A stretch of DNA of 64,000 nt from Patescibacteria group bacterium. GTDB taxonomy: Bacteria > Patescibacteriota > Patescibacteriia > Patescibacteriales > UBA12465. The notes below the pieces were generated by a model. The model was not told the DNA's origin. It made no database searches and saw only the letters and a program-made list of their open reading frames with translations. The position numbers and the translations under genes were made by a program. This document shows, piece by piece, positions 1 through 64,000 of this stretch (position 1 is the stretch's first letter; the number at the start of each line of letters is the position of its first letter). Where the stretch lies: assembly GCA_023229115.1 (NCBI GenBank), contig JALNZW010000002.1, positions 17,513 through 81,512 of the forward strand, written 5' to 3'.

Positions 1-608
1 AAAACGTTAGCATTTTGGAATCTGTTAGCTAAGAAAGCAACTTCATCCTCAATTAAACGATAGTTTGTACCATCGTAGTAATAAATACTATTTTCACCAG
101 ATTTCTTTACTAAAGAACCTACTGGAGTTTCGTTAGAAGCCAAAGGAGTTCCGATAGTATAGTTGGTGAAAAAAGAATCAGCTACGTCAATTACTCTTTG
201 TGCCCAGTTAGCACCGTATAAAGCAATAGCGTCAGCTTCTGTTTGTACCCATCTTAATGTGCCATTTGGTTCAACAGCATATACTTTTGGGTCTGTTGTA
301 ATTTTTACTAATTTTGTTCCAGGGCGAACTACAACGTTAGCTCCCAATGGGTAGCTAGCTAATTCATCAGCAGAAACAGTAACAACGCTCGAGAAGTCAC
401 TGTACCATGATTTAAATGTAGATTCGTTTGGAAATACGTATCTCTTTCCATCTTCACCTAGGTAGTAAACAGCTGAAAGACCATCTTTTTTGATTAAGTC
501 ACCAGCTTGTGCAGCAGCGTTAGCAACTGGAGCAACTAAAGCTCCACTCATAACAGCCACTGTCATTACCATAACGGCAGATGTAAAGATTTTTTTCAAT
601 CTTTTCAT
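1..608 (-). CDS. secreted repeat protein, C-terminal part cut off by window edge
   Basis: ATG at 608..606; reverse frame stays open to base 1 (absent from ORF track because it runs off the window). The N-terminus MKRLKKIFTSAVMVMTVAVMSGALVAPVANA looks like a signal peptide. The mature part starts a repeated unit (DLIKKDGLSAVYYLGEDGKRYVFPNE ... / SLVKKSGENSIYYYDGTNYRLIEDE). Confidence 0.6.
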   Translation of the reverse strand, partial: MKRLKKIFTSAVMVMTVAVMSGALVAPVANAAAQAGDLIKKDGLSAVYYLGEDGKRYVFPNESTFKSWYSDFSSVVTVSADELASYPLGANVVVRPGTKLVKITTDPKVYAVEPNGTLRWVQTEADAIALYGANWAQRVIDVADSFFTNYTIGTPLASNETPVGSLVKKSGENSIYYYDGTNYRLIEDEVAFLANRFQNANV

Positions 609-719
609 AACAATTTTGTAACATATTTCTAAATTTGTATATAAAGATACAATTATTTAGAAACAATTTTTAGTATTTCCACAAGAATTTTTATTACCTG
701 AAATTTTTGACCTCTAAAG

Positions 720-1010
720 ATCAAATGAATAAATCGATCAGGATCCCGCTCCCCCGCACACTCATAAAAACAAGTGAGATGTAGGGAAAAATTAATTTGC
801 TATAAGCATGAAACAGCAGGATAATTTTTCACAACTCCGACGCTAATTTTCATAAGCGTGCGGAGAAAAGCTTAACCGATCTATATAATTTAGATTTTGT
901 CGGCTAAATTTTTCAAGCTTTTTTTCTTCTTGCAGAAATATTTGGTTTTTAACATCCGCACCTTCCCCCTCGGGAATCGACCTTGCTGGCCACGGCGAAT
1001 CTCTACTAAT
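720..1010. other. GC-enriched, hairpin-rich intergenic block (possible unclassified structured RNA)
   Basis: Lies in a 460-bp ORF-free gap. C/G runs CCCGCTCCCCCGCACAC (745..761) and CCGCACCTTCCCCCTCGGG (956..973); local hairpins at 835..865 and 974..1001. Strand undetermined; I could not match RNase P, SRP, 6S or a riboswitch class. Confidence 0.3.
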
Positions 1011-1021
1011 AAATTAATAGG

Positions 1022-1068: not shown

Positions 1069-1947
1069 CTATTTAATCTCTTGTAATTTTAAAACAACCT
1101 CACTATATCTACCTTCATTAAATAATCTTTCAATTTCTTCAATTAAATCTTTTTTGTCTTTTTGTACTTCTTGATTATTTTCTAAATTTATCTGTTCACT
1201 CAATTCTTCAATTTGATCACCCAAGCTTTCAATTTCTAAACTTGTACTAGCAACATAATCCGTAGCTTCAACTGAAGTACTAGAAACAGAATCAGTCTCA
1301 TCAATTAAACTAGTGCTATTTAAAAAATTTTCTTCAGGAATACTAATATCAATTCCATTTTCATCTTTTAAATTACTAGCACTAAAAACTAAAGTGTCTT
1401 TTTGCTCTTCTATCTGTTTTTCCATTTCAGCTGTTTCTGTTTTTTTAACATTAACCCTCACCTTCTCAATCTCGCTTCTAAAGCTGGCCGACAACTTAGC
1501 AACCTCTTCTTTATTTTCTTCATTATTAAATTCAGGGTCCATCAATAAAGTAGCAATATCCTCGGCGTGTTTACTAGCGAACTCCATCTCTAATTTTTCT
1601 CTTTCAATATTATTAAAAACTGTATTCAGTCTAGCTCTCTCGCTAATAACTCTGGCAATATACAAAGAGTCATTTGGTTTAGAATCTTTGTAGAAATCGT
1701 TTCCTAAAAACAAAGAAGTCACTACAAATAAAAAAACACCGGATAAAACCATGGCCGGCTTAGAACTCATTGATAAGATATTTCTAAAATAAAAGAAAAA
1801 ATTATTAAAAGACTTAACTTCAAAATTATCTGAAATAGTATTAGAAATCTGAGTCATCAAAACTCTTTTGTTTGACTCTTTTAATTCTGAATCCATTTTA
1901 ATCGACTTCAGGGAATTAAGTTGTTTTAACAATTCTTTGTCAGTCAT
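1069..1947 (-). CDS. single-pass membrane protein, DUF5667-like (putative anti-sigma-type partner)
   Basis: 292 aa with one TM (PAMVLSGVFLFVVTSLFLG). After it comes PNDSLYIARVISERARL..EREKLEMEFASKHAEDIATLL, which resembles the DUF5667 pattern, then an acidic coiled-coil tail. Same strand and cluster as the sigma factor. Confidence 0.6.
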   Translation of the reverse strand: MTDKELLKQLNSLKSIKMDSELKESNKRVLMTQISNTISDNFEVKSFNNFFFYFRNILSMSSKPAMVLSGVFLFVVTSLFLGNDFYKDSKPNDSLYIARVISERARLNTVFNNIEREKLEMEFASKHAEDIATLLMDPEFNNEENKEEVAKLSASFRSEIEKVRVNVKKTETAEMEKQIEEQKDTLVFSASNLKDENGIDISIPEENFLNSTSLIDETDSVSSTSVEATDYVASTSLEIESLGDQIEELSEQINLENNQEVQKDKKDLIEEIERLFNEGRYSEVVLKLQEIK

Positions 1948-2215: not shown

Positions 2216-2674
2216 CTATTCAGCAACGTGAATAATTCCTCCTGGGGTTGCTTGCTTAAGACCAGCTTCTAAACCACCAGTTTGACCACCTAAACAAAAG
2301 TTGATTACATAAGATCCGTATCCAGAAGTACCAACTTGAGTTCCAGTTGCAACATAAGTATAGTTATTTTTAGTTCCGTCACAAACACCATCAGCTGGAG
2401 TTGGAGCAGTTGGAACAATGTTCATGTAAGTGATTCCATTGGTAGCAATAGTTCCTCCGGCTGTTACATTAGTTGTAAGAGGGTAGTATTGATTGTCATT
2501 AAAGTACAATTCCAATGCTGTTTGCATTTGACGAACGTCAGCGATTCTTTTTGCATCTCTAGCATTCTTTCTAGCTTGTTGTAAAGCAACAACAGCCAAA
2601 GTTGCCAAGATACCGATGATGGCAATAACCACCAATAACTCGATCAAGGTAAAACCTTTTTTCTTTGTGTTCAT
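2216..2674 (-). CDS. type IV pilin (candidate major pilin), 152 aa
   Basis: Canonical class III leader and N-terminal helix MNTKKKG|[28 protein letters not shown]. Short globular domain ending LKQATPGGI; own strong terminator. Confidence 0.85.
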
Positions 2675-3519: not shown

Positions 3520-4569
3520 CTATTTCTTATAAATAATATCAGAATCTTCAAAATAATTACGGTTATTGAAATATTCGTTAGTCTTATTTATAACCTTGGT
3601 CATAATTTTAACAGCATCTATTGGGAAAAGGCCAGCGGCTGTTTCATCGGAAAGCATCAAAGCGTCAGCTCCATCAAAGATAGCATTGGCTACATCGCTA
3701 ACCTCGGCTCTAGTTGGTCGATAATGGTCAACCATAGAGGCTAACATTTGAGTAGCTACAATAGCTGGCTTATTGTGCCAATGAGAATGTCTAATTAAAT
3801 TTTTCTGAATTATTGGTAAATCTTCCATGGGCATCTCTATTCCCAAGTCACCACGAGCAATCATGATAGCATCTGATTTTCTGATTATATTATCAATATC
3901 ATCTAAGGCCACAGCTCTTTCTATTTTAGGAACTATTTTAATCTCATCATTTCCTAATATTTTTTTTAATTCATCAATATCACTACTGTTTTGCACAAAA
4001 GAAATAGCTAAATAATCAGGTTTTACTTTTTTGGCAAATTCAATATCAAGCAAATCTTTGGCTGTTAAAATTGGACGATTTAAAACTGTCTGAGGAACAT
4101 TCATTCCTTTTCTAGATAAAAGAAGACCCCCTCTTTCTACCTTAGCTAAAAATTTACCATTAATCAGATCTAATTCTTTCACGGTTAATTCAATTGAGCC
4201 ACTATCTAAATAAATTGGATGGCCTATTTTTAAATCTTGAATAAGCTCAGCATCATCAATAGGCACCTCCATATTGTCAATATTTCCTTTTTGAAACATA
4301 AAAGCATATGTCTCTCCCTCAACCATAGTAATTTCGTGATCTAATTTGCCAACTCTAATTCTTGGTCCTTGTAAATCAAATAAAATCTTAACATCTATGC
4401 CCGTTTCTTCTCTAATTTTATCGATGGAGCCTTTTACTCGATAATACTGATCATAGCTAGCATGAGAAAAATTCAAACGAACCATATTGGCCCCAGCCAA
4501 AACCATGGCCTTCAAGATGCTATAATCCTCCGACTTTGGACCAACAGTAATAATTATTTTTGTATTCAT
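3520..4569 (-). CDS. pyk: pyruvate kinase, short form (349 aa)
   Basis: MNTKIIITVGPKS..NMVRLNFSHAS..DLQGPRIRVG..MIARGDLGIEMP..ATQMLASM match pyruvate kinase A/B-domain motifs. The protein ends right after the A domain. Confidence 0.85.
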   Translation of the reverse strand: MNTKIIITVGPKSEDYSILKAMVLAGANMVRLNFSHASYDQYYRVKGSIDKIREETGIDVKILFDLQGPRIRVGKLDHEITMVEGETYAFMFQKGNIDNMEVPIDDAELIQDLKIGHPIYLDSGSIELTVKELDLINGKFLAKVERGGLLLSRKGMNVPQTVLNRPILTAKDLLDIEFAKKVKPDYLAISFVQNSSDIDELKKILGNDEIKIVPKIERAVALDDIDNIIRKSDAIMIARGDLGIEMPMEDLPIIQKNLIRHSHWHNKPAIVATQMLASMVDHYRPTRAEVSDVANAIFDGADALMLSDETAAGLFPIDAVKIMTKVINKTNEYFNNRNYFEDSDIIYKK

Positions 4570-6438: not shown

Positions 6439-7659
6439 CTATTTCTTAGTTATTCTCACCTGTTTTATAACTTTATTCTCAAGTTTTTCTACCACACAAA
6501 CAAACCTGTCATTTTCGATGGTTGTTCCTTCGGTTGGAATTTTTTTTATAGTCTCTAAAACAAAGTCAGCCACTGTTTCTAGATCATCTTCTGATAAAGT
6601 AATGTTTAAAAAACGATTAATATCACGACACTCAACCGCCCCAGAAACAACTATTTCATTTTTACCAATTCTTTTTATAAAATTATCATCAATATCATGC
6701 TCATCAACTATTTCACCCACCAACTCTTCGATAATATCTTCTAGGGTTATAATACCCTCTGTTCCGCCATATTCATCCATCACAACAGCAATATGTATTT
6801 TTCTTTTTTGAAATTCTTTTAAAACACTATTAATTAACATCTGTTTCGGTACAAATATTATTGGTCGAATTAATGACTTAACCATCTCGCCCTCTTTATT
6901 ATTCCTGAAGGCCAACAGAACATCTTGAGCATGCACAAAACCCAAAACCTTATCAATAGATTCTTCGATAACCAAACAACGAGTTATACCATATTTTTCA
7001 ATTTCAATAGCCGTTTTTTCAATAGAATCAACCTCCTTAACATAAACAACCTCGACCCGAGGAGTCATAATATCTTCAGCTGAAATATCGTTAAATTTAA
7101 AAAGTTTTTCAATCATCAAACCTTCATTTTTTTCAATTGTTCCTTGTTGAACTCCAGCCATAGCTAAAGCTTTTAATTCTTCTTCACTAATTTCTTCTAT
7201 TTTATGACTACCAACTAAAATATTAGTTATTTTTTCCATTAACCAAATGATTGGCAAGAAAAACTTTTTTAAAAAAGAAATAAAAGGAGCAAATTGACGA
7301 GACAACCAAGGGGCATGAGAAGAGGCAAAAGACTTGGGTACTATTTCACCAAAAATTAAAATAATTATAGTCATTATACCAGTGGTTAATCCAATAACAG
7401 CTGAATCAAAATATTTAGCAAAAATAACAGTAGCCAAAGAAGCGGCGGCAATATTAACAATATTATTACCAATCAAAACTGTTATAAGTAAAGATCTGGG
7501 ATTTTCTTTCAACTTTTTAACTGTAAGAGCATTTTTCTTCTTAGCTTCAATCATGGCTACAATTTTAGCCTCACTTAAGCTTAAAAAAACAACTTCAGCC
7601 GAAGAAAAAAAGGCTGATAAAACTACAAGAATAAGTAAAAACAGAAGATCAGGGTCCAT
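6439..7659 (-). CDS. CNNM/HlyC-CorC family transporter (DUF21 + CBS pair + CorC_HlyC)
   Basis: 406 aa; four N-terminal TMs, a CBS region (DIMTPR..), C-terminal GGTEGIITLEDIIEELVGEI. Confidence 0.85.
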   Translation of the reverse strand: MDPDLLFLLILVVLSAFFSSAEVVFLSLSEAKIVAMIEAKKKNALTVKKLKENPRSLLITVLIGNNIVNIAAASLATVIFAKYFDSAVIGLTTGIMTIIILIFGEIVPKSFASSHAPWLSRQFAPFISFLKKFFLPIIWLMEKITNILVGSHKIEEISEEELKALAMAGVQQGTIEKNEGLMIEKLFKFNDISAEDIMTPRVEVVYVKEVDSIEKTAIEIEKYGITRCLVIEESIDKVLGFVHAQDVLLAFRNNKEGEMVKSLIRPIIFVPKQMLINSVLKEFQKRKIHIAVVMDEYGGTEGIITLEDIIEELVGEIVDEHDIDDNFIKRIGKNEIVVSGAVECRDINRFLNITLSEDDLETVADFVLETIKKIPTEGTTIENDRFVCVVEKLENKVIKQVRITKK

Positions 7660-8968: not shown

Positions 8969-11122
8969 TTATTTTAAATTAATAGAATCATCAATTGTAG
9001 ATCTTATCGCTCTGACTTTATTAGAGCTTCCCTTATAATATTCTGGAGGAGTTTCAGATAGAGCCTTAGCTTCATTTATAAATTTAAATCTTTTTGAATA
9101 AGAAGGCCTAATACCAGCTACCGCCGAAGAAACATCTAATTCCGTAGAAGACCAATAATAACTATTATAAATACTTAAATTAGTTAAAAGATAGTTCAGT
9201 TCATTGCTTGAGGGCAAATACCAGTCACTATAACCTCCACTCTGATAATCACTTGCTATTTGAGCAGCACTAGAATTACCACAAGGAAGAGACAATATAT
9301 TTGAAGTGTTGCTTGTCCCATCCACAATCGAAAAAGCTTCGGTAAGAACACCATCACAACCCCAAGAAGTTCCAGCACTTTGATCACTTGTTGCCGCTAC
9401 AAAAATTTTAGCTTCATCAGCAATTGTATACCCTTTATAAAAAACAACTCCCCCTCCGCAAGAATCACCTATTTCATTTAAATCCGTACATTCAGTATCT
9501 TGAACAATTGGCTCTTCGCCATCCTCATCTTCAGAGTTAGAAACCAATCTTCTTATAACCAAGGCATTCATATTCTCATTGTCTGGCGATTGATCTTCTA
9601 AAAACATTAAATAGATAATATTATTATCTATTAACATTGAAATGCTAGAAAATATTTCACTATAGGAAGCAATCGGTCCAACATTTTCCCAGGAAGAACC
9701 ATTAAATTTTTTTACCTCCACTAAACCAGGGTCAGTGGCTGGATTAGTAGCTGAGACGTTAACACCATTTTTATAGGCCACATAAGGAACTTCATTATAA
9801 ATATAAAGAGCTAATTGAGAGGCATGACCAACAGAAAAAACTCCATCATTTGGTCCAAGTGGTTGCCAAGAGGTTCCATTAAATTTTAAAGCTGTACCTC
9901 TTTCGCCAACACCTCCGCTTGCAACATCTACACCACCTTGGTAAACAACATATAAATCACCATTATTACTTATTTGAAAATCAGCATGACCAGAGTTTTC
10001 TGAATGAAGTATTTCTATTGGACTACCAACTTGATTCCAAGTAGTTCCATCAAATTTTTTAACCACCCATTTAGGTGACCCAGAATCACAATCTCTTCTA
10101 TACATAGTATAAAGCTCTCCATTATGAATTCTAAGAATTGGCTTGGTTCCTTTTTGACCATTGGAAACAGTTGGCCCAACTTGCTCCCAAGCACCATTTA
10201 CAAATTTGACTACATAAGTTTCCTCGGTAGAAGCTTTGTCCTTGTAAGCCACATAAGGAACATTATTATAAACAGCTAGAGAAGGGTGGCAAGCTATATC
10301 AAAAGAAGTATATTCACCTAAAGACTCCCAACTACCATTTACAAATTTTTTAGTTATAATCATTTGTGAATCATAATTATCTTTATAGGTTATATATGGC
10401 ACTCCATTGAAAACCTGCATGGAAGATTTTCCTCCACTTTGACTGTGAATTGTTGACCCTAAATTAGCCCAAGAATTACCACTTGATTTAGCCATTTTTA
10501 AATAACGACTTTCTGAACTATCTCGATAGGAGGCATAAAGTTCATTATTATAAACATCTAGATTAGAGCTACAACCCCGCTCAGATAAGACTGGAGATCC
10601 ATAGGTTTGCCAAATACAACTTGATGAATCAGCTAAACAATTATTTTCAGTTGAACCATCATCATCTCCCCCTCCTTCAATTCCGCAATCTTGATTTAAA
10701 ATGCCTCCTGGAGTCAAACACTTAAGACCAGAATCTAAATTGTTAGAATCTTTTCCTAAACAAAAAGACAAGAGATAAGTACGATCATTATTTTGAGGTT
10801 GATAGATATATGAGTTTTGTTCTTCGGTGCAAGCACCATCAGCTACAGCCGGAGCAGCAGGAATATTTTGCATATAAATACCATCAATCCCGGCAATTTG
10901 GCCAGAATTCCATTCTTCTTCCGTTGGATAACGATTATTTTCATTAAAAAATAATTCTAAAGCAGTTTGCAGTTGTTTAACATCTGCTAAGCGCTTAGAG
11001 TCGCGGGCGCGAGAACGGGCTTGTTGTAGGGCTACTACGGCTAAGGTGGCTAGTATGCCAACGATAGCTATTACTACCAAAAGCTCGATTAGGGTGAAAG
11101 CTTTTTGTTTTTGTTTGAACAT
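8969..11122 (-). CDS. type IV pilin-like protein with beta-propeller-like repeats and C-terminal DUF1566/Lcl-like lectin-fold domain (717 aa)
   Basis: N-terminus MFKQKQKA|[28 protein letters not shown] and a full pilin domain to ..LKCLTPGGI (aa 1-141). Six to seven ~50-aa repeats of YNNxPYVAYKD..VKKFNGxxWxxVG (aa 186-526, nt 9545..10567). C-terminal GGGVVFYKG..GGYSDWYLPSSNEL..YYWSSTE..KVRAIRS (nt 8999..9466). Confidence 0.85.
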   Translation of the reverse strand: MFKQKQKAFTLIELLVVIAIVGILATLAVVALQQARSRARDSKRLADVKQLQTALELFFNENNRYPTEEEWNSGQIAGIDGIYMQNIPAAPAVADGACTEEQNSYIYQPQNNDRTYLLSFCLGKDSNNLDSGLKCLTPGGILNQDCGIEGGGDDDGSTENNCLADSSSCIWQTYGSPVLSERGCSSNLDVYNNELYASYRDSSESRYLKMAKSSGNSWANLGSTIHSQSGGKSSMQVFNGVPYITYKDNYDSQMIITKKFVNGSWESLGEYTSFDIACHPSLAVYNNVPYVAYKDKASTEETYVVKFVNGAWEQVGPTVSNGQKGTKPILRIHNGELYTMYRRDCDSGSPKWVVKKFDGTTWNQVGSPIEILHSENSGHADFQISNNGDLYVVYQGGVDVASGGVGERGTALKFNGTSWQPLGPNDGVFSVGHASQLALYIYNEVPYVAYKNGVNVSATNPATDPGLVEVKKFNGSSWENVGPIASYSEIFSSISMLIDNNIIYLMFLEDQSPDNENMNALVIRRLVSNSEDEDGEEPIVQDTECTDLNEIGDSCGGGVVFYKGYTIADEAKIFVAATSDQSAGTSWGCDGVLTEAFSIVDGTSNTSNILSLPCGNSSAAQIASDYQSGGYSDWYLPSSNELNYLLTNLSIYNSYYWSSTELDVSSAVAGIRPSYSKRFKFINEAKALSETPPEYYKGSSNKVRAIRSTIDDSINLK

Positions 11123-11141
11123 ATTGTTTTATTACTACCAA

Positions 11142-11244
11142 TTGTCATCCCAGCAAGCCACTTCCTGTATGGCAAAATCTTGGACACAGCTTGGTTTGTA
11201 AAGATTAAACCGCTTCTGTCATCCCAGCGTAAGCTGGGATCCAG
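11142..11244. repeat. palindromic repeat units a (degenerate, 11142..11190) and b (11216..11244)
   Basis: Unit b = CTGTCATCCCAGC-GTAA-GCTGGGATCCAG. Unit a has the same left arm, a long loop and a decayed right arm. Same family at 11349, 34350, 55329, 55402, 55556 and 55595. Confidence 0.8.
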
Positions 11245-11298
11245 CTTGGTTAGTAAAAATAATTGAATTATATAAAATTACTAAATTAATTTATTTAA

Positions 11299-11327
11299 AT
11301 TATACTTATAATCCCTTTGTCAACCAA
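11299..11327 (-). promoter_or_regulatory. sigma70-like promoter of the 717-aa pilin gene
   Basis: Minus strand TTGGTT(11327..11322)-N17-TATAAT(11304..11299). Aligns without gaps to TTGTTT-N17-TATAAT upstream of the second cargo pilin. Confidence 0.55.
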
Positions 11328-11348
11328 TAGAGTACTTAGGTGTTTATT

Positions 11349-11377
11349 CTGGATTCCAGCTTTCGCTGGAATGACAG
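11349..11377. repeat. palindromic repeat unit c (inverted orientation relative to b)
   Basis: CTGGATTCCAGC-TTTC-GCTGGAATGACAG. Confidence 0.8.
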
Positions 11378-11415
11378 GGAATAATTCTATTATAACAAAA
11401 AATATAATTAAAAAA

Positions 11416-14409
11416 TTATTGTCTAAAATCACAGATATCTTTAAAATCACAAAAAGAACAATTAAAAGTTGAAGGCTTTGGTAAAAATTCTTTTTTATTT
11501 ATTTCCTCAATACTGTTTTTTAACCACTCTAGTGTTTTATCAATATCTTTTTCCTTAGCCTCAAAGCTGAGCTTATTGTTTGCCTCTAAATAATAATAAC
11601 TCATTTTTTCAACCTCTAAACTTAAAACACTTTCAATCATTATTTTATACAAAAGTAACTGCCGTTTGTCATCTGAACTTAGAGATTCTTTGGCATTACC
11701 AGTTTTATAATCAATAATTTCAAACTTACCATTTTCTAGCTTATCAATTCTGTCGATTCTACCAATTATAGTTTGATTATTAAATTTATATCTTAAATCT
11801 TTTTCTAAAAAGTATATTTGTGGCAATTTGCCAGAAAGTAAAGATTTGCAAAAATTTTTTAAAATATCCTTACCCTTTAAATTATATTCATTTCTAACTA
11901 ATTTATCCTCATAACCTTCGTCTTGCCAAAATTGACGATAAAGATCTAAAATTCTTTTTTCATTCAATTCTTTTGTATTTATTTTTTGATCAGAAAATAA
12001 ATCAGACTGCAAATTATTCCCACCTTGAAGTATTGGCAAAAGAAAATGATAAAGAGTATTGTGAATAACTTTTCCAAAGGTTAAATTATACTTTTCAGTT
12101 GGAACTGGAACTTTTAATAAATGAGCATATTTATATTGCAAGGGACATTTATCAAAAGAGGCAAACTGAGAATAAGAAAAATAAGCTGGCAGTTTTAACT
12201 CTTCCTTGGTTAGTAAAAACTCTCCAAAATTTTCATCAGAAATTGTTTTTAAATCTTTAAAAAAATCTAAATCATCAAAATTTATTTTTTCAGATATATT
12301 TAATTCCAATTTTGATTCTTTTATAAAAATAGAAGGTCTCTTTTCTCTAGCACCACCATAATCCTTAGAACAACTTAGATATAAATTTTCTTTAGCTCTA
12401 GTTAAGGCTACATAAAACAAACGTCTTTCTTCTTCGATATGAAAATTGTCAGAATTGCCAACTTTTTCTTTAACCAAAGTTTGAGGAACTGGAATTTTAT
12501 CCTTTCGATTATCACTAGGAAAACGTCTTTCCACCAAATCCACTAAAAAAACATGTTTAAATTCTAGGCCCTTGGCGGAATGAACGGTCATAACTTTAAC
12601 GGTATCAACATCAACGAAATCATTTTTCAATCTACCAAAATCACCAGACTCCAATTCAAAATCCAAAACTTCCAGAAAATCTTTCAATCTTAAATTTTCA
12701 TCATCTTCTTCAAATTTTTTTATTTTTTGATAAAACTGATTAATGTAAGAAAAAATCTCTTTATCTTTTTCATGATTTAAATTTTTTAAAATTTCACTAT
12801 CATAAACAAATTTAACAAAAACATGACTTGGTTTTTTATCACGAGCTAAAATGCTATGAGTTTCAATTAAATTCAAAAGCTTATTTATTTTAGGTAAAGA
12901 GACGGAACTGACTCCTTTTATTTTTTCAGCATTTTGCAAACCCTCAAATAAAGACCAATATTTTTTCTTAGACTCTTTAATTATATTTTGTAAATCAAGA
13001 TAGCTTATTTTAAATTCTTCCATGTTTAAAACCCGAAACAATGCTGATGATTCTCGATAATCGTCTAATAATCTAAAATAAGAAATTATATCTAAAATTA
13101 TTGGTTTATAATAAAGACCCTTAAGAGAAACAAAATGATTAGGAATGTTTAAACGACTAAGCTCTTTGGAGTACTTGTCAGCCGAATCGTTAGTTCTAGT
13201 TAAAATAGCAAAATCCAACCAATTACACCCTGGATCTTTTTTATAAATTTCAAAAATCTTGGAGCTAACAAAACTCATTTCATCTGATTCATTTAAAAAA
13301 TTAAAAGCTGATATGGGATTAGATTTTGAATTTTCTGATTCAAAATAAGATTTTAACTTTTTATCAATTCCCAATTTAATCTCTAAACGATTGGGATTAT
13401 TATGAGAAATAAAATTGTAAGCTAAATCAAGTATTTCCTGACGAGAACGATAATTGCGAGTCAAAACTATTTCTTTAGCCTGAGGATAATCATCTTTAAA
13501 CTGCATAATATTAGAAATAGAAGCTCCCCTAAATTTATAAATAGACTGATCATCATCACCAACCACCATCAAATTATTTTTTTTACCAGCCAAAATTTTA
13601 ATTAATTCATATTGAGAAAAATTAGTATCTTGAAACTCATCTAACATCAAATATTTAAATTTTGCTTGATAAACTTTTAAAATATTAGGTCTGGTTTTAA
13701 AAAGTTTAATAGTATAATTTATTAAATCAGCAAAATCTAAATTACCGTCCTCAAGCATGATCTTATTATAGACAAAAAAAGCTTCAGCCAATTCCTTGGT
13801 TTTTTTCAACTCTAAAGTATCTTCTTCACTAAAATCTTTTATTTTCTTAGATTTTTTCTCAAGTTCTATAGAATAATTTAAATATTCTTCTGCTAGAATA
13901 TTTTCATCTTTCAAACGAGAAAAATGGTTTAACAGTTCTTTAATAAATTTATTAGGGTTTCCAGCAGGAGCATAATAATCTAGCTTAAAGCTAGCTAAAT
14001 TCTTTTTTACAAAAATCCACTGAGCTGTCTCATCTAATAATTTAAAATCAGGATTTAAACCAATTTCTAAAGCATGATCACGCAAAACTCTTTCACCAAA
14101 GCCATGAAAAGTATTAATCCAGAGATCAATATAACCGTAGGGTAAAATTTTATCAGCTCTCTCAATCATCTCATTAGCAGCTTTTTCGGTAAAAGTAGCT
14201 AAAAATATTTCATCTGTTTTCACTCCTTCTTCTAAAATTAAATAGGCCAAACGATTGATTAAAACCGTCGTTTTGCCAGTACCAGCGCCAGCCACTACTA
14301 AAAGAGGCCCGTCTTTATGTTTAACAGCCTCTAATTGTTCCTTGTTAAGTTTTTTTAAATCTTCTTTAAACAAATTTAAATCATTTTGTATGTTTTTTTT
14401 GTTTTTCAT
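11416..14409 (-). CDS. UvrD/PcrA-type helicase fused to a C-terminal RecB/Cas4-like PD-(D/E)XK nuclease with a 4-Cys cluster
   Basis: 997 aa. Walker A AGAGTGKTT, DEFQDT, helicase motifs through VMTVHSAKGLEF and YVALTRAK. C-terminal domain FDKCPLQYKY ... GRIDRID..EIIDYKTG ... CSFCDFKDIC (C..C-x2-C-x5-C). Confidence 0.85.
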   Translation of the reverse strand: MKNKKNIQNDLNLFKEDLKKLNKEQLEAVKHKDGPLLVVAGAGTGKTTVLINRLAYLILEEGVKTDEIFLATFTEKAANEMIERADKILPYGYIDLWINTFHGFGERVLRDHALEIGLNPDFKLLDETAQWIFVKKNLASFKLDYYAPAGNPNKFIKELLNHFSRLKDENILAEEYLNYSIELEKKSKKIKDFSEEDTLELKKTKELAEAFFVYNKIMLEDGNLDFADLINYTIKLFKTRPNILKVYQAKFKYLMLDEFQDTNFSQYELIKILAGKKNNLMVVGDDDQSIYKFRGASISNIMQFKDDYPQAKEIVLTRNYRSRQEILDLAYNFISHNNPNRLEIKLGIDKKLKSYFESENSKSNPISAFNFLNESDEMSFVSSKIFEIYKKDPGCNWLDFAILTRTNDSADKYSKELSRLNIPNHFVSLKGLYYKPIILDIISYFRLLDDYRESSALFRVLNMEEFKISYLDLQNIIKESKKKYWSLFEGLQNAEKIKGVSSVSLPKINKLLNLIETHSILARDKKPSHVFVKFVYDSEILKNLNHEKDKEIFSYINQFYQKIKKFEEDDENLRLKDFLEVLDFELESGDFGRLKNDFVDVDTVKVMTVHSAKGLEFKHVFLVDLVERRFPSDNRKDKIPVPQTLVKEKVGNSDNFHIEEERRLFYVALTRAKENLYLSCSKDYGGAREKRPSIFIKESKLELNISEKINFDDLDFFKDLKTISDENFGEFLLTKEELKLPAYFSYSQFASFDKCPLQYKYAHLLKVPVPTEKYNLTFGKVIHNTLYHFLLPILQGGNNLQSDLFSDQKINTKELNEKRILDLYRQFWQDEGYEDKLVRNEYNLKGKDILKNFCKSLLSGKLPQIYFLEKDLRYKFNNQTIIGRIDRIDKLENGKFEIIDYKTGNAKESLSSDDKRQLLLYKIMIESVLSLEVEKMSYYYLEANNKLSFEAKEKDIDKTLEWLKNSIEEINKKEFLPKPSTFNCSFCDFKDICDFRQ

Positions 14410-16443: not shown

Positions 16444-18393
16444 CTAAACTTTAATAACTACCGGCAAAACCATTGGCCTTCTTTTAGTAGCGCCAAATAA
16501 AAACTGTCCAATTTCATTTCTAATTTTGTTTTTAATATAATCATCATCAGCTGGGGTTTCTGGGTTTTGATCTCTGACTATTTTTTTAACTCTATCTCTG
16601 GTTTTTTCTATTAAATCTCTATTTTCCTTCATGTAAATAAAACCTCGAGAAATTAAGTCAGGACTACCAATTAAAGCGCCAGATTTAGCATCAATAGTGG
16701 CAATAACAACAATCATTCCATCTTCGGCCATCATTCTTCTATCACGAAGAACTATACTAGAAACATCTCCAACCCCTAAACCATCAACCATTACATACTC
16801 TGTTGGAACTTTTTCTTTAGTTAAAGTTCCAATGACATTATATTTTTTATTAGCAATTATTTTTTCTCCTTTTTTAAATTCTACTACCTGACCATTATCA
16901 GCTACAAAAATATTTTCTTTAGGAATACCAATCTGTTCGGCTAAATCTGCATGAGCCTGAAGCATATAATGATTAGCCTCAATTGGCATAAAATACTGTG
17001 GTTTAATAAGTCTCATCATTAACTTTAAATCTTCTTGCTTGGCGTGACCTCCAGCATGAATGTCCATCATCTTATAATGAATTATTTTAGCTCCTTGTCT
17101 AACCACCATATCCATTAAATTTTGAATACTTCTTTCGTTCCCAGGAATGACTGAAGAAGAAAAGATGACAGTATCTCCCTGTTTTAAACTAATAGAACGA
17201 TGTTCTCCATTTACCACTCTTGATAAGAAAGCATTACTTTCTCCTTGAGCTCCGGTTCCAATAATAATAATCTTATCGTCTCTCACTCTGTTTAAATCAC
17301 GATCTTCAACTATAATTTTTGGGTCAAATTTCAAATAACCAATCTGATGTGCCACCTCAACGTTTTCATTCATACTTCTTCCTTGAAGAGATATACGACG
17401 ACCGTATTTAGTTGCTAAATCAAAAATCTTTTGAACACGACTAAGTTGTGAAGCAAAGGTTCCAATAATAATTCTGCCGGTAATTTTATCAAACAATTTA
17501 CCCATTTCATCTCCGATGGCTGATTCTGAAACTTGATAACCAGGATGGGTGGCATCAGTTGAATCTGACATTAAAAATAAAATATCATCTGAGCCAATTT
17601 GAGCTATACGATTTAAATCAGCTGGTTTATCATTTACTGGTGAAAAATCTATTTTAAAATCACCAGTATGCACTATTTTGCCAAGTGGTGTTGTAATAAT
17701 AGCTGCAAAACAATCAGGGATAGAATGATTAACTCTAAAAAATTCTATACTCAACTTATCTGATAATTTGATTTTATCATTTTCAGTTATTTCTTTTATT
17801 TTAAGAGTTGGCGCATCTCTGAATTCAACTGCTCTTTTTCTAACCAATCCAGCCGTCATTTTACCCATTAACATTGGAGGGTTGCCAATTTTACCCATAA
17901 TATGAGGAATTCCGCCAATATGATCATAGTGCCCATGAGTTATAAAAACAGCTTTAATCCAATCTTTTTTGTCTTCTAAATAGGAAACATTAGGAATAAT
18001 ATAATCAATACCAGGCATGTCTTCTTCTGGAAACTGCAAACCCATGTCAATAATTATTATTTCTTTTTCATACTCAACCAACATCATATTGCGACCAACC
18101 TCTTCCAAGCCACCTAGGGCCATTATTCTTAATTTACCGCTCAAATCTTTAGGCGCTAAATTAACAAATTGATCACGCGAATCATTACCTGAGTTAATCA
18201 TTTTCTTTCCATTAAATGGAGGTCGACGATTATAATTTGAAGATCTGTTATCTCTTCCTCTAAAACTCCTGCTAGGAGAAAAATCTTTTTTATTTGTTGT
18301 GTTTGTCCTTTTAACAAGATGACTACTTGTTTTTTCTGTATTATCTTTCTTTTCCGATGGAGAAGGTAATACTGATTTGTATTTTCTAATCAT
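16444..18393 (-). CDS. rnj: ribonuclease J (metallo-beta-lactamase / beta-CASP)
   Basis: FITHGHYDHIGG motif and RNase J-type layout; about 85-aa basic N-terminal extension (..RSFRGRDNRSSNYNRRPPFNGKK). Confidence 0.9.
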   Translation of the reverse strand: MIRKYKSVLPSPSEKKDNTEKTSSHLVKRTNTTNKKDFSPSRSFRGRDNRSSNYNRRPPFNGKKMINSGNDSRDQFVNLAPKDLSGKLRIMALGGLEEVGRNMMLVEYEKEIIIIDMGLQFPEEDMPGIDYIIPNVSYLEDKKDWIKAVFITHGHYDHIGGIPHIMGKIGNPPMLMGKMTAGLVRKRAVEFRDAPTLKIKEITENDKIKLSDKLSIEFFRVNHSIPDCFAAIITTPLGKIVHTGDFKIDFSPVNDKPADLNRIAQIGSDDILFLMSDSTDATHPGYQVSESAIGDEMGKLFDKITGRIIIGTFASQLSRVQKIFDLATKYGRRISLQGRSMNENVEVAHQIGYLKFDPKIIVEDRDLNRVRDDKIIIIGTGAQGESNAFLSRVVNGEHRSISLKQGDTVIFSSSVIPGNERSIQNLMDMVVRQGAKIIHYKMMDIHAGGHAKQEDLKLMMRLIKPQYFMPIEANHYMLQAHADLAEQIGIPKENIFVADNGQVVEFKKGEKIIANKKYNVIGTLTKEKVPTEYVMVDGLGVGDVSSIVLRDRRMMAEDGMIVVIATIDAKSGALIGSPDLISRGFIYMKENRDLIEKTRDRVKKIVRDQNPETPADDDYIKNKIRNEIGQFLFGATKRRPMVLPVVIKV

Positions 18394-22095: not shown

Positions 22096-22132
22096 TTTTA
22101 GTTAAATTTAATTTTAAAATAGAAATTAATTG

Positions 22133-53925: not shown

Positions 53926-53999
53926 GGGCGTATAGCTCAGTTGGTTAGAGCGTTACGTTGACATCGTAAAGGTCTCCCGTTCGAGTCGGGATACGCCCA
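53926..53999 (+). tRNA. tRNA-Val (GAC)
   Basis: GGGCGTA acceptor arm, anticodon arm TTACG-TTGACAT-CGTAA, T arm TCCCG-TTCGAGT-CGGGA. Confidence 0.9.
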
Positions 54000-54005
54000 C
54001 TCTGA

Positions 54006-54079
54006 GGACATATAGCTCAGTTGGTTAGAGCACCGCCCTTATAAGGCGGGGGTCGATGGTTCAAGTCCATCTATGTCCA
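54006..54079 (+). tRNA. tRNA-Ile (UAU)
   Basis: GGACATA acceptor arm, anticodon arm CCGCC-CTTATAA-GGCGG (anticodon TAT), T arm GATGG-TTCAAGT-CCATC. The body closely resembles bacterial tRNA-Ile. Confidence 0.85.
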
Positions 54080-54082
54080 CAC

Positions 54083-60763: not shown

Positions 60764-60787
60764 ATATGTATATAATTTAATTTATAT

Positions 60788-63700
60788 TTATTCTTTATTT
60801 TCGATCACAGGAAGAGAGCCTTCATTATAAATTTGCTCATCAGCATTATTTATTTTTTCAATATCATTATTATTTTTTACTTCTTCTTCTGGATCTTCTT
60901 CTATTTTTTGCCCCCCTAAAAGATCAACATTTAATCCCAAGCCTTTTAATTCTCTAATTAAAACATTAAATGATTCTGGCACGTTTAACTTCTGAATTTC
61001 TTCTCCTTTAATAATTGATTCATAAGCTTTACTTCTGCCAGTAACATCGTCCGATTTAATAGTTAACATTTCTTGTAAAGTATGAGAAGCACCATAGCCT
61101 TCCAGCGCCCAAACTTCCATTTCTCCAAATCTTTGTCCACCAAACTGAGCCTTACCACCCAAAGGTTGTTGAGTAATTAAGGAATATGGACCAATAGATC
61201 TTTGATGAATCTTATCTTCAACCATGTGATTAAGCTTCAACATATATTTATAACCAACAGTAACTCTATTTTCGTAAGACTCTCCTGTTCGTCCATCATA
61301 TAAAGTCACCTTGCCATCTTCGGCAAAGCCAGCTTTTTTTAATTCTTGTTTAATTTGTTCTTCGGTAATACCATTAAGAGCTGGAGTAGCAACATTATAT
61401 CCCAATGTCTTGGCAGCTAGACCCATATGAGTTTCAAGCAATTGCCCGAAGTTCATACGAGAAATAATTCCTAAAGGAGATAGAATAATATCAATTGGAG
61501 TTCCATCCTCCATATGAGGCATATCTTCAACTGGAACAATTTTAGAAATAACGCCTTTGTTTCCATGACGACCAGACATTTTATCTCCAACTTGGATTTT
61601 CCTTAAATTAGCAATAGATACTTGAACTGATTTTAAAACACCAGCCTCCAGTCTATCACCAGCATCACGTGAAAAAACTTTAACATCAATAACCTTCCCA
61701 TGTTCGCCATGCTCCAAATAAAGAGATGAGTCTCTAACATCTTTAGCTTTGTCACCAAAAATAGCTCGAAGCAATCTTTCTTCGGCACTTAATTTGGTTT
61801 CACCTTTAGGTGTAATTTTACCAACCAAAATATCGCCACTAGAAACTTCGGCTCCAATTCTAATAACACCATCTTCGTCTAAATTCTTTAATTTTTCTTC
61901 AGAAATGTTAGGTATATCATTAGTAATAACCTCTGAACCAAGTTTAGTATCACGAACATCAATCTTATAATTTTCAATTTGAATAGAAGAATAAACATCT
62001 TCCTTTACTAATCTCTCAGAAATAATAACAGCGTCTTCATAGTTATAACCATCCCAAGTCATAAAAGCTACCAAAACATTTTTACCCAAGGCTAATTCAC
62101 CATTACTAATGGCTGGACCATCAGTTAAAACTTGCCCTTTTTTTACTTTTTCACCTAAATCAACAATTGGTTTTTGGTTAATACAAGTTAGGAAGTTAGA
62201 TCTTAAAAACTTAGTTAAATTATATTTTTTTATTTTTCCTTTACTATTTTTAACTTCAATATTTAAAGAATCAACTTTTTCTATAACACCATCTTCTTCG
62301 GCAATGATAACGTGACCAGAATCAATAGCAGCTCGACGCTCAATGCCAGTACCAACAACTGGAGCTTCTGTTTTAACCAAAGGAACAGCTTGACGTTGCA
62401 TGTTTGTTCCCATTAAAGATCTTTGTCCATCGTTATGTTCCATAAAAGGAATAAGTGATGTCGCGATAGAAACAATCTGGTTAGGGGCAACACCAACAAA
62501 GTCAATTTCTTTCATGGTAACAGTTTCTGGTTTTCCGCCTCTTCTACCAGGATAAGTTTCAATTAAAAATTTATTATTATTATCAAGAGGAATGGTGGCA
62601 TCAACTACAACATATTTTTCTTCTTCAAAAGAATCCAAATAAACTATTTCGTCACTAACCACTGGGCCTTTTTTATCCTTAATAACTTTTTTATATGGAG
62701 CCTCTAAAAAGCCATAATTATTTAATCTAGCATAGCTAGCCAAATGACCAACTAATCCAATGTTTGGACCCTCTGGAGTAGCAATAGGGCAAATACGACC
62801 ATAGTGAGTAGTGTGCACATCTCTAACATCAAAACCAGCCCTTTCCCTGGTTAAACCTCCAGGACCCATAGCCGATAATCTTCTCTTATGTTCCAACTCA
62901 GCCAAAGGATTTGTTTGATCCATAAACTGTGACAATTGAGATGACATAAAGAACTCTCTTACCACGGCAATAACTGGTCTAGCGTTTATAAGCTTGTTAG
63001 GGTTTAAAGTTTCAATATCAGCGATACTCATTTTGTCTTTGATAATTCTTTCCATTCTAGCAAAACCAACCCTCAATCTATTTTGAACCAAGCCACCAAC
63101 AGCCCTCACCCTTCTGTTTCCAAGATGATCAATATCATCTTCTGGTTCTTTAGTTATATTTAATCTAATTATTTCTTTAACAATATTTAACAAATCTTCT
63201 TTTCTTAAAATTCTATTTTCTTTATTAATAGGTAAGTTTTCATCAAACCTCCTATTTAATTTATAACGACCGACTCTACCAAAATCATAACGATCGAAGC
63301 GAAAAAACATGTTTTCAATTAACTGTTTAACATTTTTATCATCAGCCAAATCACCTGGTCTTACTCTTCTGTAAACTTCTTGCAAGCCTTCAACTTGATT
63401 TTTAGCTAAGTCTTTTTTGATAGTAGCTTCTATATAACCAACTTCATCTTCACTTTTTACAAGATCAACGTCTTTAAAAATTTTTAACAATTCTTCATCA
63501 GTTTCATAACCAAAAGCTCGAAGCAAAGAAGTAACCGCCACTTTTCTTTTCCTATCTATTCTAACCCAAAGAACCTTATTTGCATCAGTCTCAATTTCTA
63601 ACCAAGCACCTCTATTTGGAATTATTTTTGCACCATAGTATTTTTTACCCTTAATATACTCAGAGGTAAACATAACTCCAGCACTCCTAATTAACTGAGA

Positions 63701-64000
63701 AACTACAACCCTTTCAATTCCGTTAATTATAAAAGTTCCCCTATTAGTCATTAAAGGAAAATCACCCAAATAAACTTCTTGAGATATTTCTTTATTATTT
63801 TTTTTGTTTTTTAAAATGGCCTTTACTCTAAGAGGGGCTTCATAGGTAATGTTTTTATCACGACTTTCAATTTCATCAAATTTTGGCTTATCTAAATAAT
63901 AGTCTCCAAAATAAAGCTCTAATTCACGATTATTAAAATCAATAATTGGTGAAATTTCATCAAGTAGTTCAGTTAAACCCTCTTTTAAAAACCAATTATA
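60788..64000 (-). CDS. rpoB: DNA-directed RNA polymerase subunit beta (N-terminus beyond window end)
   Basis: The frame stays open upstream of the track's TTG at 63769 (..APLRVKAILKNKKNNKEISQEVYLGDFPLMTNRGTFIINGIERVVVSQL..) to base 64000. Conserved motifs throughout (GRHGNKGVISK, NMQRQAVPL). Confidence 0.97.
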   Translation of the reverse strand, partial: YNWFLKEGLTELLDEISPIIDFNNRELELYFGDYYLDKPKFDEIESRDKNITYEAPLRVKAILKNKKNNKEISQEVYLGDFPLMTNRGTFIINGIERVVVSQLIRSAGVMFTSEYIKGKKYYGAKIIPNRGAWLEIETDANKVLWVRIDRKRKVAVTSLLRAFGYETDEELLKIFKDVDLVKSEDEVGYIEATIKKDLAKNQVEGLQEVYRRVRPGDLADDKNVKQLIENMFFRFDRYDFGRVGRYKLNRRFDENLPINKENRILRKEDLLNIVKEIIRLNITKEPEDDIDHLGNRRVRAVGGLVQNRLRVGFARMERIIKDKMSIADIETLNPNKLINARPVIAVVREFFMSSQLSQFMDQTNPLAELEHKRRLSAMGPGGLTRERAGFDVRDVHTTHYGRICPIATPEGPNIGLVGHLASYARLNNYGFLEAPYKKVIKDKKGPVVSDEIVYLDSFEEEKYVVVDATIPLDNNNKFLIETYPGRRGGKPETVTMKEIDFVGVAPNQIVSIATSLIPFMEHNDGQRSLMGTNMQRQAVPLVKTEAPVVGTGIERRAAIDSGHVIIAEEDGVIEKVDSLNIEVKNSKGKIKKYNLTKFLRSNFLTCINQKPIVDLGEKVKKGQVLTDGPAISNGELALGKNVLVAFMTWDGYNYEDAVIISERLVKEDVYSSIQIENYKIDVRDTKLGSEVITNDIPNISEEKLKNLDEDGVIRIGAEVSSGDILVGKITPKGETKLSAEERLLRAIFGDKAKDVRDSSLYLEHGEHGKVIDVKVFSRDAGDRLEAGVLKSVQVSIANLRKIQVGDKMSGRHGNKGVISKIVPVEDMPHMEDGTPIDIILSPLGIISRMNFGQLLETHMGLAAKTLGYNVATPALNGITEEQIKQELKKAGFAEDGKVTLYDGRTGESYENRVTVGYKYMLKLNHMVEDKIHQRSIGPYSLITQQPLGGKAQFGGQRFGEMEVWALEGYGASHTLQEMLTIKSDDVTGRSKAYESIIKGEEIQKLNVPESFNVLIRELKGLGLNVDLLGGQKIEEDPEEEVKNNNDIEKINNADEQIYNEGSLPVIENKE

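What the first reader, a model, noticed from the sequence alone, without database searches (positions are those of the whole stretch)
1..64000. TGA is never used: 0 of 53 stop codons and no in-frame occurrence
I read the stop codon at all 53 CDS 3' ends in the window: 44 TAA, 9 TAG (1069, 2216, 3520, 6439, 16444, 20655, 21529, 22699, 41457) and 0 TGA. The six-frame track uses standard stops and still returns full-length rpoC (1307 aa), pheT, topA, hppA and others. So TGA is also never in frame as a sense codon across roughly 19,000 codons, although the trinucleotide is common out of frame. From memory, AT-rich standard-code bacteria end on the order of a tenth of their genes in TGA. Zero of 53, with TAG at 9, is therefore unexpected. 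The pattern fits an unassigned or strongly avoided UGA (for example RF2 lost or dispensable). That is the intermediate state proposed by codon-capture models, preceding the UGA reassignments known in Mycoplasma (Trp) and in Gracilibacteria/Absconditabacteria (Gly).
Basis: partly seen in the sequence, partly recalled or inferred. Interest (0 to 1): 0.55.

Follow-up and report, generated by a model that had tools for sequence, protein, structure and literature searches.

The report
Rare TGA stops in AT-rich Falkowbacteria
The window comes from an AT-rich, uncultured Falkowbacteria (candidate phyla radiation) genome whose genes almost never end in TGA, but a close relative does end genes in TGA, so this is most likely strong avoidance of a working stop codon and not a change in the genetic code.

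Summary
The count is correct. The 53 genes end in 44 TAA, 9 TAG and 0 TGA, and none of the 19,024 sense codons is TGA, although TGA is common out of frame.

The organism is a 31% GC Candidatus Falkowbacteria (Patescibacteria/CPR) from metagenomes.

TGA is depleted against the window's own neutral baseline. It makes up 12-16% of stop triplets downstream, upstream and between genes, which gives P of about 3e-4 for 0 of 53. The depletion belongs to the whole genus-level clade, not to this window. About 241 gene ends from 17 lineages include only 5 TGA (about 2%), and at that rate 0 of 53 has P of about 0.3.

The five TGA ends are real stops at orthologous positions. Two are in L110, a sister lineage of the window species (about 80% protein identity, 30% GC), where all other lineages have TAA. 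TGA stops have therefore arisen recently next to the window lineage, so its recent ancestors could terminate at UGA.

"Strongly avoided" is supported. "Unassigned / RF2 lost" has no support, but I could not test it directly because no Falkowbacteria prfB locus could be reached. Reassignment to an amino acid is excluded for this window.

This is ordinary, of low interest. There is a residual chance of about 12% that RF2 was lost recently.

The parts
1..64000 (.). The set of 53 protein-coding genes (89% of the window) whose stops are 44 TAA, 9 TAG and 0 TGA. There are 19,024 sense codons with no in-frame TGA and 151 TGG. GC3 is 21.5% and intergenic GC is 26.7%.
   Evidence: annotation
1069..1071 (-). 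TAG stop of a 292-aa gene with no Pfam match
2216..2218 (-). TAG stop of a pilin-like gene (N_methyl, 152 aa)
3520..3522 (-). TAG stop of pyruvate kinase (349 aa)
6439..6441 (-). TAG stop of a CNNM/CBS/CorC gene (406 aa)
16444..16446 (-). TAG stop of RNase J (649 aa)
20655..20657 (-). TAG stop of secG (72 aa)
21529..21531 (-). TAG stop of infC (188 aa)
22699..22701 (-). TAG stop of smpB (157 aa)
41457..41459 (-). TAG stop of an Hsp20 gene (142 aa)
11105..11266 (+). 53-aa TTG-start ORF ending in TGA. It lies antisense in the repeated GC-rich leader upstream of a pilin-like gene and is judged spurious.
11317..11472 (+). 51-aa TTG-start ORF ending in TGA, in the same leader and overlapping the start of the AddA-like helicase gene. 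Judged spurious.
22132..22292 (-). tRNA-Gly(GCC) and tRNA-Leu(UAA). Neither has the anticodon UCA.
22307..22690 (-). tmRNA. Its tag reading frame ends in two TAA codons. smpB lies directly upstream at 22699-23172.
38727..38799 (-). tRNA-Glu(UUC)
53926..54080 (+). tRNA-Val(GAC) and tRNA-Ile(UAU). No UGA-decoding tRNA is present in the window.

Best explanation
The window uses the standard bacterial code. UGA is still a stop codon, but it ends only about 0-2% of genes in this AT-rich (31% GC, GC3 21%) Falkowbacteria clade.

Three things keep it rare. First, G-to-A mutation pressure turns TGA into TAA. Second, the usual preference for TAA applies, since both release factors read it. Third, there is extra selection against UGA as a primary stop, because canonical sites have far less TGA than neutral in-frame sites nearby. 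TAG is not affected by that selection and stays near its neutral level of about 17%.

With a clade-wide rate near 2%, a sample of 53 genes with no TGA is expected about one time in three.

Shown: the counts, the depletion relative to neutral sites, and working TGA stops in close relatives. Inferred: that RF2 is retained in the window genome itself, and the cause of the selection against UGA.
For: (1) Identity of the organism. RpoC is 96-82% identical to low-GC MAGs and 87% identical to Candidatus Falkowbacteria HGW-Falkowbacteria-1.

(2) There is no in-frame TGA in 19,024 codons, and all 151 Trp codons are TGG. All genes are full length.

(3) Clade tally. About 241 ORFs of at least 100 aa from 17 lineages give 201 TAA, 35 TAG and 5 genuine TGA, after removing two ORFs antisense to pgk.

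(4) The TGA ends are real stops.
- In L110 the pyrH-like kinase ends ...YGKK-TGA where L106 has ...YGK-TAA.
- In L110 GH57 ends ...HWSRN-TGA where L106 and L004 have ...HWSKR-TAA.
- The same GH57 TGA is seen in two further sequencing runs, L111 and L112.
- In L014, YceG and a Ham1-like gene end in TGA; in L018, a DprA-like gene does.

(5) Position of L110. Over APH+PHP+FtsK the identities are L004-L106 91%, L119 85-86%, L110 80-81%, L121 78% (82% to L110), L120 72-74%, and L114/L117 69-72%. L110 is therefore nested among lineages without TGA. At both of its TGA sites every other lineage has TAA, so TGA is derived there.

(6) Stop codons turn over. Of 38 ortholog families, 18 are TAA/TAG polymorphic and 4 carry a singleton TGA. 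That ratio of about 1:5 predicts about 3% TGA.

(7) General trend. TGA use falls steeply with GC while TAG stays near 20% (PMC8789281). Mycoplasmatota have particularly low TGA stop use, and a minority of them (mostly Acholeplasmataceae) retain prfB (PMC12421855).

(8) CPR relatives of the same class (ABY1, Uhrbacteria type) keep prfB with its CTT TGA autoregulatory frameshift.
Against: - I never saw prfB or prfA of the window lineage or of any Falkowbacteria, so retention of RF2 here is an inference.
- The depletion in the TGA-less lineages is extreme: 0/47 in the window plus 0/124 in the others, against 5/44 and 19/107 at neutral downstream positions.
- TGA use is heterogeneous among lineages (permutation p = 0.0025). 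That fits a discrete difference between lineages better than one shared low rate, although the genes are not independent.
- Patescibacteria have reassigned UGA several times independently, so the prior for loss of RF2 is higher in this phylum than elsewhere.
Confidence: 0.78

Rival explanations
1. UGA is unassigned in the window lineage. RF2 was lost, or became dispensable, after the split from the L110 lineage, and possibly several times independently in the clade. TGA has been purged from gene ends but has not yet been captured by a tRNA. This would be a natural codon-capture / unassigned-codon intermediate.
For: - The window species and its closest relatives (L001, L004, L007, L106) show 0 TGA in about 77 gene families.
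- All TGA-less lineages together show 0 of 171 gene ends against 11-18% at neutral in-frame sites.
- TGA use differs among lineages (p = 0.0025).
- There is no in-frame TGA, as expected before capture.
- The genome is AT-rich and small, and the phylum has at least three to four independent UGA reassignments. One genus mixes code-11 and code-4 genomes.
Against: - The sister lineage L110, and also L014 and L018, use TGA as a stop, and the L110 stops are derived from TAA. The common ancestor therefore had RF2 while its genes were already almost free of TGA, so lack of TGA does not indicate loss of RF2.
- Explaining all TGA-less lineages by loss would need several independent losses.
- At the clade rate of about 2%, 0 of 53 (P about 0.3) or 0 of 77 (P about 0.2) is unremarkable.
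- Code-11 genomes without prfB are rare in surveys: in one Patescibacteria comparison every code-11 genome but one had prfB.
- Absence of prfB was not shown here.
Confidence: 0.12
2. UGA has been reassigned to an amino acid (table 4, Trp, or table 25, Gly), as in other Patescibacteria, and the window happens to show no example.
For: Such reassignments exist in the phylum. No TGA stop occurs in the window.
Against: - There are no in-frame TGA among 19,024 sense codons, against 151 TGG and 1,127 Gly codons. In AT-rich code-4 or code-25 genomes TGA is a frequent sense codon (my own knowledge).
- No gene is split or extended at a TGA, and coding density is 89% under table 11.
- No tRNA(UCA) is among the 5 tRNAs in the window or the 12 found in related loci.
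- Close relatives use TGA as a stop.
Confidence: 0.01
3. Pure sampling accident. The genome ends an ordinary share of genes (about 10%) in TGA, and these 53 genes simply miss them, for example because the window is rich in highly expressed housekeeping genes that prefer TAA.
For: The sample is small, and the window holds rpoB/C, ribosomal protein genes, tig, nusA, infC and pheST.
Against: - P(0 of 53) at 10% is 0.004.
- The absence extends to about 25 further genes of the same or nearly the same species in another genome region (L004, L106) and to many related lineages.
- TAG is not depleted (17%), so a simple preference for TAA in expressed genes does not explain the asymmetry.
Confidence: 0.05

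Closest known systems
AT-rich standard-code bacteria with very low TGA use (general GC-TGA trend; Mycoplasmatota, some of which retain prfB)
   Same: - The GC content is low, TAA dominates, TAG stays near 15-20% and TGA falls towards zero.
- TGA is still a stop, as seen in close relatives here.
- Sources: PMC8789281 and PMC12421855.
   Different: - This is a CPR (Patescibacteria, Falkowbacteria) lineage.
- TGA at gene ends (about 2% in the clade, 0 of 53 here) is well below the level at neutral in-frame sites (12-18%). In the surveyed bacteria the trends of stop-triplet use with GC were the same at canonical stops and in 3' UTRs.
- prfB itself was not observed here.
Codon-capture / unassigned-codon intermediates (Osawa-Jukes model; unassigned CGG in Mycoplasma capricolum; code-11 Tapirivita with 9% UGA next to UGA=Trp Eggerthellaceae)
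   Same: AT pressure drives a G-containing codon towards extinction. No sense use of the codon is seen in the sample.
   Different: - The defining step, loss of the decoder (RF2), is not shown.
- Sister lineages have recently gained TGA stops, so the decoder was present in recent ancestors.
- The codon is rare in the clade, not extinct.
UGA reassignments in Patescibacteria (table 25 in Gracilibacteria/Absconditabacteria/JAEDAM01; table 4 in Minisyncoccia family JAKLIH01 and genus GCA-2747955)
   Same: Same phylum, small AT-rich genomes and no TGA stops in the sample.
   Different: - Those lineages have many in-frame TGA at conserved Trp or Gly positions, usually a tRNA(UCA), and no prfB.
- Here there is no in-frame TGA in 19,024 codons and no tRNA(UCA) in the sequence at hand.
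- Falkowbacteria are not listed among the recoded groups in those papers.

Membership tests
Standard bacterial code (table 11) with UGA = stop | UGA terminates bona fide genes | tested here: inconclusive
   This is not seen in the window or in the same species (0 of about 77 families). It is seen in the sister lineage L110 (2 of 11) and in L014 and L018 of the same clade, at orthologous stop positions.
Standard bacterial code (table 11) with UGA = stop | prfB (RF2) present | not testable with these tools
   - The window and 120 kb of related loci contain no release factor gene.
- The two RF2 searches reached only a Uhrbacteria-type RF2 cluster.
- Falkowbacteria do not keep the groEL-MamF-prfB arrangement of those relatives.
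Standard bacterial code (table 11) with UGA = stop | No in-frame UGA inside conserved genes | tested here: met
   0 of 19,024 sense codons. RpoC, PheT, TopA, HppA, NusA and the others are full length.
UGA = Trp (table 4) | In-frame TGA at conserved Trp positions; genes fragmented under table 11 | tested here: not met
   All 151 Trp codons are TGG and there is no in-frame TGA. Coding density is 89% under table 11.
UGA = Trp (table 4) | tRNA-Trp with anticodon UCA, or a UGA-reading variant of tRNA-Trp(CCA) | tested here: inconclusive
   The window has 5 tRNAs and related loci have 12 more; none has the anticodon UCA. No tRNA-Trp gene lies in the sequence available.
UGA = Gly (table 25) | In-frame TGA at conserved Gly positions; tRNA-Gly(UCA) | tested here: not met
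   There are 1,127 Gly codons and none is TGA. The only tRNA-Gly found has the anticodon GCC.
Unassigned codon / codon-capture intermediate | The codon is absent from both sense and stop positions genome-wide | tested here: inconclusive
   It is absent from 64 kb of the window and about 30 kb more of the same or a nearly identical species. The rest of the genome was not seen.
Unassigned codon / codon-capture intermediate | The decoder of the codon (RF2) is lost | not testable with these tools
   See the prfB row. Indirect evidence points the other way: derived TGA stops in sister lineage L110 require RF2 in the recent common ancestor.

The most novel reading that the evidence does not exclude
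The window species, and perhaps most lineages of its genus-level Falkowbacteria clade, has recently lost RF2 or made it dispensable. It would then live with UGA neither as stop nor as sense, while interleaved sister lineages (L110, L014/L018) keep UGA termination. That would be a natural, phylogenetically bracketed unassigned-UGA stage in a phylum that has reassigned UGA several times.
Probability: 0.12. Interest if true: 0.7.

Novelty: already known. Interest (0 to 1): 0.22.

Why it matters
If UGA were truly unassigned here, the clade would give a rare natural view of the step before stop-codon reassignment, with TGA-using and TGA-less sister lineages side by side. On the present evidence it does not. 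It is an extreme but expected case of TGA avoidance in an AT-rich genome.

The practical message is that a lack of TGA stops in a few dozen genes of a low-GC genome is not evidence for a code change. Table 11 is the right table for calling genes in this window.

A smaller point may be worth a genome-scale look. TGA is much rarer at gene ends than at neutral in-frame sites, and its use differs between closely related lineages. This suggests that UGA terminates poorly in many of these organisms.

Tried and rejected
(1) Looking for prfA/prfB in the window and in all fetched loci. Nothing was found except prfB in L028, a Uhrbacteria-like organism.

(2) The single metagenome scan, spent on GroEL of the window lineage. 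GroEL proved too conserved: most of the 80 loci were unrelated bacteria and none belonged to the near clade.

(3) Two protein searches for a Falkowbacteria RF2. The first used the L028 RF2. The second used a synthetic RF2 biased towards AT-rich amino acids, built from the first hits. Both returned the same tight cluster of about 140 Uhrbacteria-type sequences. No hit carried a Falkowbacteria name, and none sat on a contig with the length of a known Falkowbacteria contig.

(4) Synteny. prfB follows groEL-MamF in the Uhrbacteria-type relatives. In Falkowbacteria, including the TGA-using L014, groEL is followed by coaD-like, yceG, DUF3160 and rpoB. The missing prfB next to groEL therefore says nothing about loss.

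(5) The most AT-rich RF2 hit (P0116, locus L105). Its contig is short, has 1.6x coverage and shares nothing with Falkowbacteria loci.

(6) IMG/VR scans with the RF2 alignment, FtsK and RpoC. These found RF2-bearing contigs, most on large IMG/VR contigs, and a few unidentified ones, but no Falkowbacteria.

(7) My interim reading that the clade with RpoC identity of at least 82% is TGA-free. I dropped it after the FtsK-region look-ups showed TGA stops in L110.

(8) Two TGA-ended ORFs in L114 and L117. They are antisense to pgk and are artefacts of my greedy ORF caller.

(9) Literature. I found no paper on stop-codon use or RF2 in Falkowbacteria.


Full report
**1. The observation**

The window is 64 kb at 30.7% GC with a strong strand bias. 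I built my own gene set from the six-frame ORF list, choosing the longest non-overlapping ORFs and cross-checking them against called genes on identical metagenome contigs and against Pfam.

- The set has 53 genes.
- It has 19,024 sense codons, none of them TGA. All 151 Trp codons are TGG.
- The only TGA-ended ORFs of at least 50 aa are two TTG-start ORFs of 53 and 51 aa. They lie antisense inside a repeated intergenic leader and I take them to be spurious.
- TGA is abundant out of frame (298 and 1007 copies in the two off frames) and in intergenic DNA (166, against 210 TAG and 692 TAA).

**2. Is it more than chance?**

The answer depends on the baseline.

- Neutral baseline within the window. 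The first in-frame stop triplet downstream of each gene is TGA in 7 of 51 cases. The in-frame stop that bounds each ORF upstream is TGA in 6 of 52. TGA is 15.5% of the intergenic stop triplets. At p of about 0.14, 0 of 53 has P of about 3e-4. For ORFs of at least 100 aa, Fisher's test of 0/47 against 5/44 gives p = 0.023.
- TAG is not depleted: 17% at gene ends against about 20% at neutral sites.

So TGA is specifically under-used as a primary stop. Section 4 shows that this holds for the whole clade.

**3. What the organism is**

- Identical proteins occur only on metagenome contigs: ENA ERZ27250894, ERZ27247376 and ERZ27247346, JGI 3300015214 and a Logan run.
- In the GTDB species set, RpoC is 96, 94 and 92% identical to three unnamed MAGs. 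It is 87% identical to Candidatus Falkowbacteria HGW-Falkowbacteria-1, and 70-74% identical to other Falkowbacteria.

This is a Patescibacteria/CPR bacterium. Its gene content fits: many pilin-like genes, DprA, an H+-pyrophosphatase and few biosynthetic genes. The window has no release factor gene and no tRNA with anticodon UCA. It does hold tmRNA and smpB.

**4. Relatives**

*First pass.* A first tally suggested a clean split:
- Loci with RpoC at least 82% identical and GC 30-33% had no TGA stops.
- Outer Falkowbacteria at GC 35-43% had about 12% TGA. Those TGA ends coincided with the ends of full-length orthologues, so they are real stops.

*A second genome region.* I reached this through FtsK of L004. 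L004 is a contig of the window species: it carries the identical 292-aa protein and comes from the same sample as a contig with identical RpoC. Look-ups gave the same roughly 20-gene region, from a T4SS pilin gene through recA, ftsK and pgk, in seven lineages.

*Relationships in that region.* Identity over APH+PHP+FtsK orders the lineages as follows:

| Lineage | Identity to the window-species pair L004/L106 |
|---|---|
| L004 (window species) and L106 (genome of the 96% relative) | 91% to each other |
| L119 | 85-86% |
| L110 | 80-81% |
| L121 | 78% (and 82% to L110) |
| L120 | 72-74% |
| L114 and L117 | 69-72% |

*TGA stops in that region.*
- All these lineages have GC 29-35% and no TGA stop, except L110.
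- L110 ends the pyrH-like kinase and the GH57 gene in TGA. Both are at the position where every other lineage has TAA.
- The GH57 TGA is seen again in two other sequencing runs.
- Reading through those TGA codons gives only 9-12 more codons, which themselves contain further TGA triplets.
- L110 has no in-frame TGA inside its genes.

TGA is therefore a stop in L110.

*Elsewhere in the clade.* In L014, YceG and a Ham1-like gene end in TGA. In L018, a DprA-like gene does.

**5. Clade-level numbers**

- ORFs of at least 100 aa from 17 lineages give 201 TAA, 35 TAG and 5 genuine TGA of 241, about 2%. Two artefacts antisense to pgk were removed.
- At that rate 0 of 53 has P of about 0.3.
- Stop codons do turn over. 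Of 38 ortholog families, 18 are TAA/TAG polymorphic and 4 carry a singleton TGA. A ratio of about 1:5 relative to TAG changes predicts about 3% TGA, close to what is seen.
- Against neutral in-frame downstream sites, the TGA-less lineages other than the window show 0/124 against 19/107. Outer Falkowbacteria show 7/93 against 18/81. L110+L014+L018 show 5/29 against 3/25.
- The distribution of TGA over lineages is heterogeneous (permutation p = 0.0025). Orthologous genes are not independent, so that figure is only a guide.

**6. What this means for the interpretation**

*Sense reassignment* is excluded for this window. There is no in-frame TGA, the genes are intact, and coding density is 89% under table 11.

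*RF2 lost / UGA unassigned* is harder to exclude, because I never reached a Falkowbacteria prfB. The evidence nevertheless points the other way.
- The two TGA stops of L110 are derived from TAA, and L110 is nested among TGA-less lineages.
- The common ancestor of L110 and the window species could therefore terminate at UGA.
- Every sampled gene in that ancestor is inferred to have ended in TAA or TAG.
- So a nearly TGA-free gene set coexisted with RF2 in this clade, and lack of TGA is not a sign of RF2 loss.

The simplest account is the known trend: TGA use falls steeply with GC while TAG stays near 20% (PMC8789281). In this clade, additional selection against UGA as a primary stop amplifies that trend. 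Why UGA is disfavoured is inferred, not shown. Possible causes are leakiness through tRNA-Trp, low RF2 levels, or a UGA-reading tRNA-Trp variant of the kind linked to reduced UGA use in PMC13092985.

**7. What remains open**

- The heterogeneity among lineages, and the depth of the depletion (0 of 171 gene ends in the TGA-less lineages), leave room for a recent loss of RF2 in the window lineage. I put this at about 12%.
- Patescibacteria have reassigned UGA repeatedly: table 25 in Gracilibacteria, Absconditabacteria and JAEDAM01, and table 4 in JAKLIH01 and GCA-2747955. One genus mixes code-11 and code-4 genomes, so the idea is not far-fetched.
- It needs whole genomes. A six-frame search for TIGR00020 and TIGR00019, a genome-wide stop tally, a tRNA scan and Codetta or gTranslate on the window species, GCA_964572055.1 and the L110 lineage would settle it.

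**8. The search for RF2**

- The window and all fetched loci lack release factor genes, except L028, a Uhrbacteria-like CPR contig found through the GroEL scan.
- Its RF2, and a second composition-biased query, retrieved only a tight cluster of about 140 ABY1/Uhrbacteria-type RF2 sequences at 69% identity or more.
- In those organisms prfB follows groES-groEL-MamF and keeps the canonical CTT TGA frameshift site.
- In Falkowbacteria, including the TGA-using L014, groEL is followed by other genes. Synteny therefore says nothing about loss.
- IMG/VR scans gave no Falkowbacteria sequence.

**9. Verdict**

- "Strongly avoided" is supported. "Unassigned / RF2 lost" is not supported, but was not directly tested. 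Reassignment is excluded.
- The phenomenon belongs to a known kind, TGA avoidance in AT-rich standard-code bacteria. Interest is low.

Noticed in passing
window 54006-54080 (+), next to tRNA-Val(GAC) at 53926-54000; also L001, L007, L009, L010: A tRNA-Ile with anticodon UAU is conserved in the near clade. From my own knowledge, bacteria usually read AUA with a lysidine-modified CAU anticodon, and a UAU tRNA-Ile is uncommon and tends to go with loss of tilS. I did not look for tilS.
   Followed up: partly
window 11123-11415 and 55235-55661 (leaders of minus-strand pilin-like genes); one motif copy at 34398-34411: GC-rich hairpin elements repeat in otherwise AT-rich leaders upstream of pilin-like genes (the 717-aa N_methyl gene and the Fib_succ_major gene). 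The motifs are CCAGC-GAAA-GCTGG, AAGCTGGnTCCCAGCTT and CGCTGGGATGACAG. Two blocks are 76-84% identical between the two leaders. There is no Rfam match. They could be a regulatory RNA or a small repeat element.
   Followed up: partly
window 35711-35767 and 37542-37589: AT-rich direct repeats with a 9-nt period (TAATAATCTTAA-like) lie in the intergenic regions in front of the glutamate dehydrogenase gene and ychF. They may be binding sites for a regulator.
   Followed up: no
L015 about 19400-21300 (Candidatus Falkowbacteria ELA342), compared with L019 19149-21050: The lepA (EF4) gene of this outer Falkowbacteria MAG has a single in-frame TGA. It aligns with a Cys codon of the 94%-identical orthologue, and homology continues in the same frame. 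This could be a sequencing error, a fresh nonsense mutation or read-through.
   Followed up: partly
L028 12179-13265; L104 9965-11080; proteins P0001-P0140: RF2 of ABY1/Uhrbacteria-type CPR bacteria forms a very tight family. It has an unusual GGQ context (SGGKGGQSVNTTYSAVRIVH in place of the usual GAGGQHVNK, which I recall from memory). The arrangement groES-groEL-MamF-prfB-epimerase-Sua5/KsgA is conserved, and the canonical CTT TGA +1 frameshift site is retained.
   Followed up: partly
L004 (ENA ERZ27247376) compared with window 1069-3387: A contig of the same species carries the identical 292-aa gene (window 1069-1947). There it sits next to a different pilin gene, Mur ligase and FtsK, not next to the sigma factor and pyruvate kinase as in the window. 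This indicates a strain-level rearrangement at a pilin gene. Several contigs also break at this point.
   Followed up: partly
window 22307-22690 (-): The tmRNA tag peptide is AKNTLKKAAFSWKVPAFAPVVA and ends in VVA, where I recall ALAA as the common ending. Its frame closes with two TAA codons. smpB lies directly upstream.
   Followed up: no
window, all CDS: CGG is very rare: 6 of 666 Arg codons, against 411 AGA. This is another GC-rich codon pushed towards extinction by AT pressure. Low-GC lineages with rare CGG are where CGG reassignments have been reported (PMC8629427).
   Followed up: no
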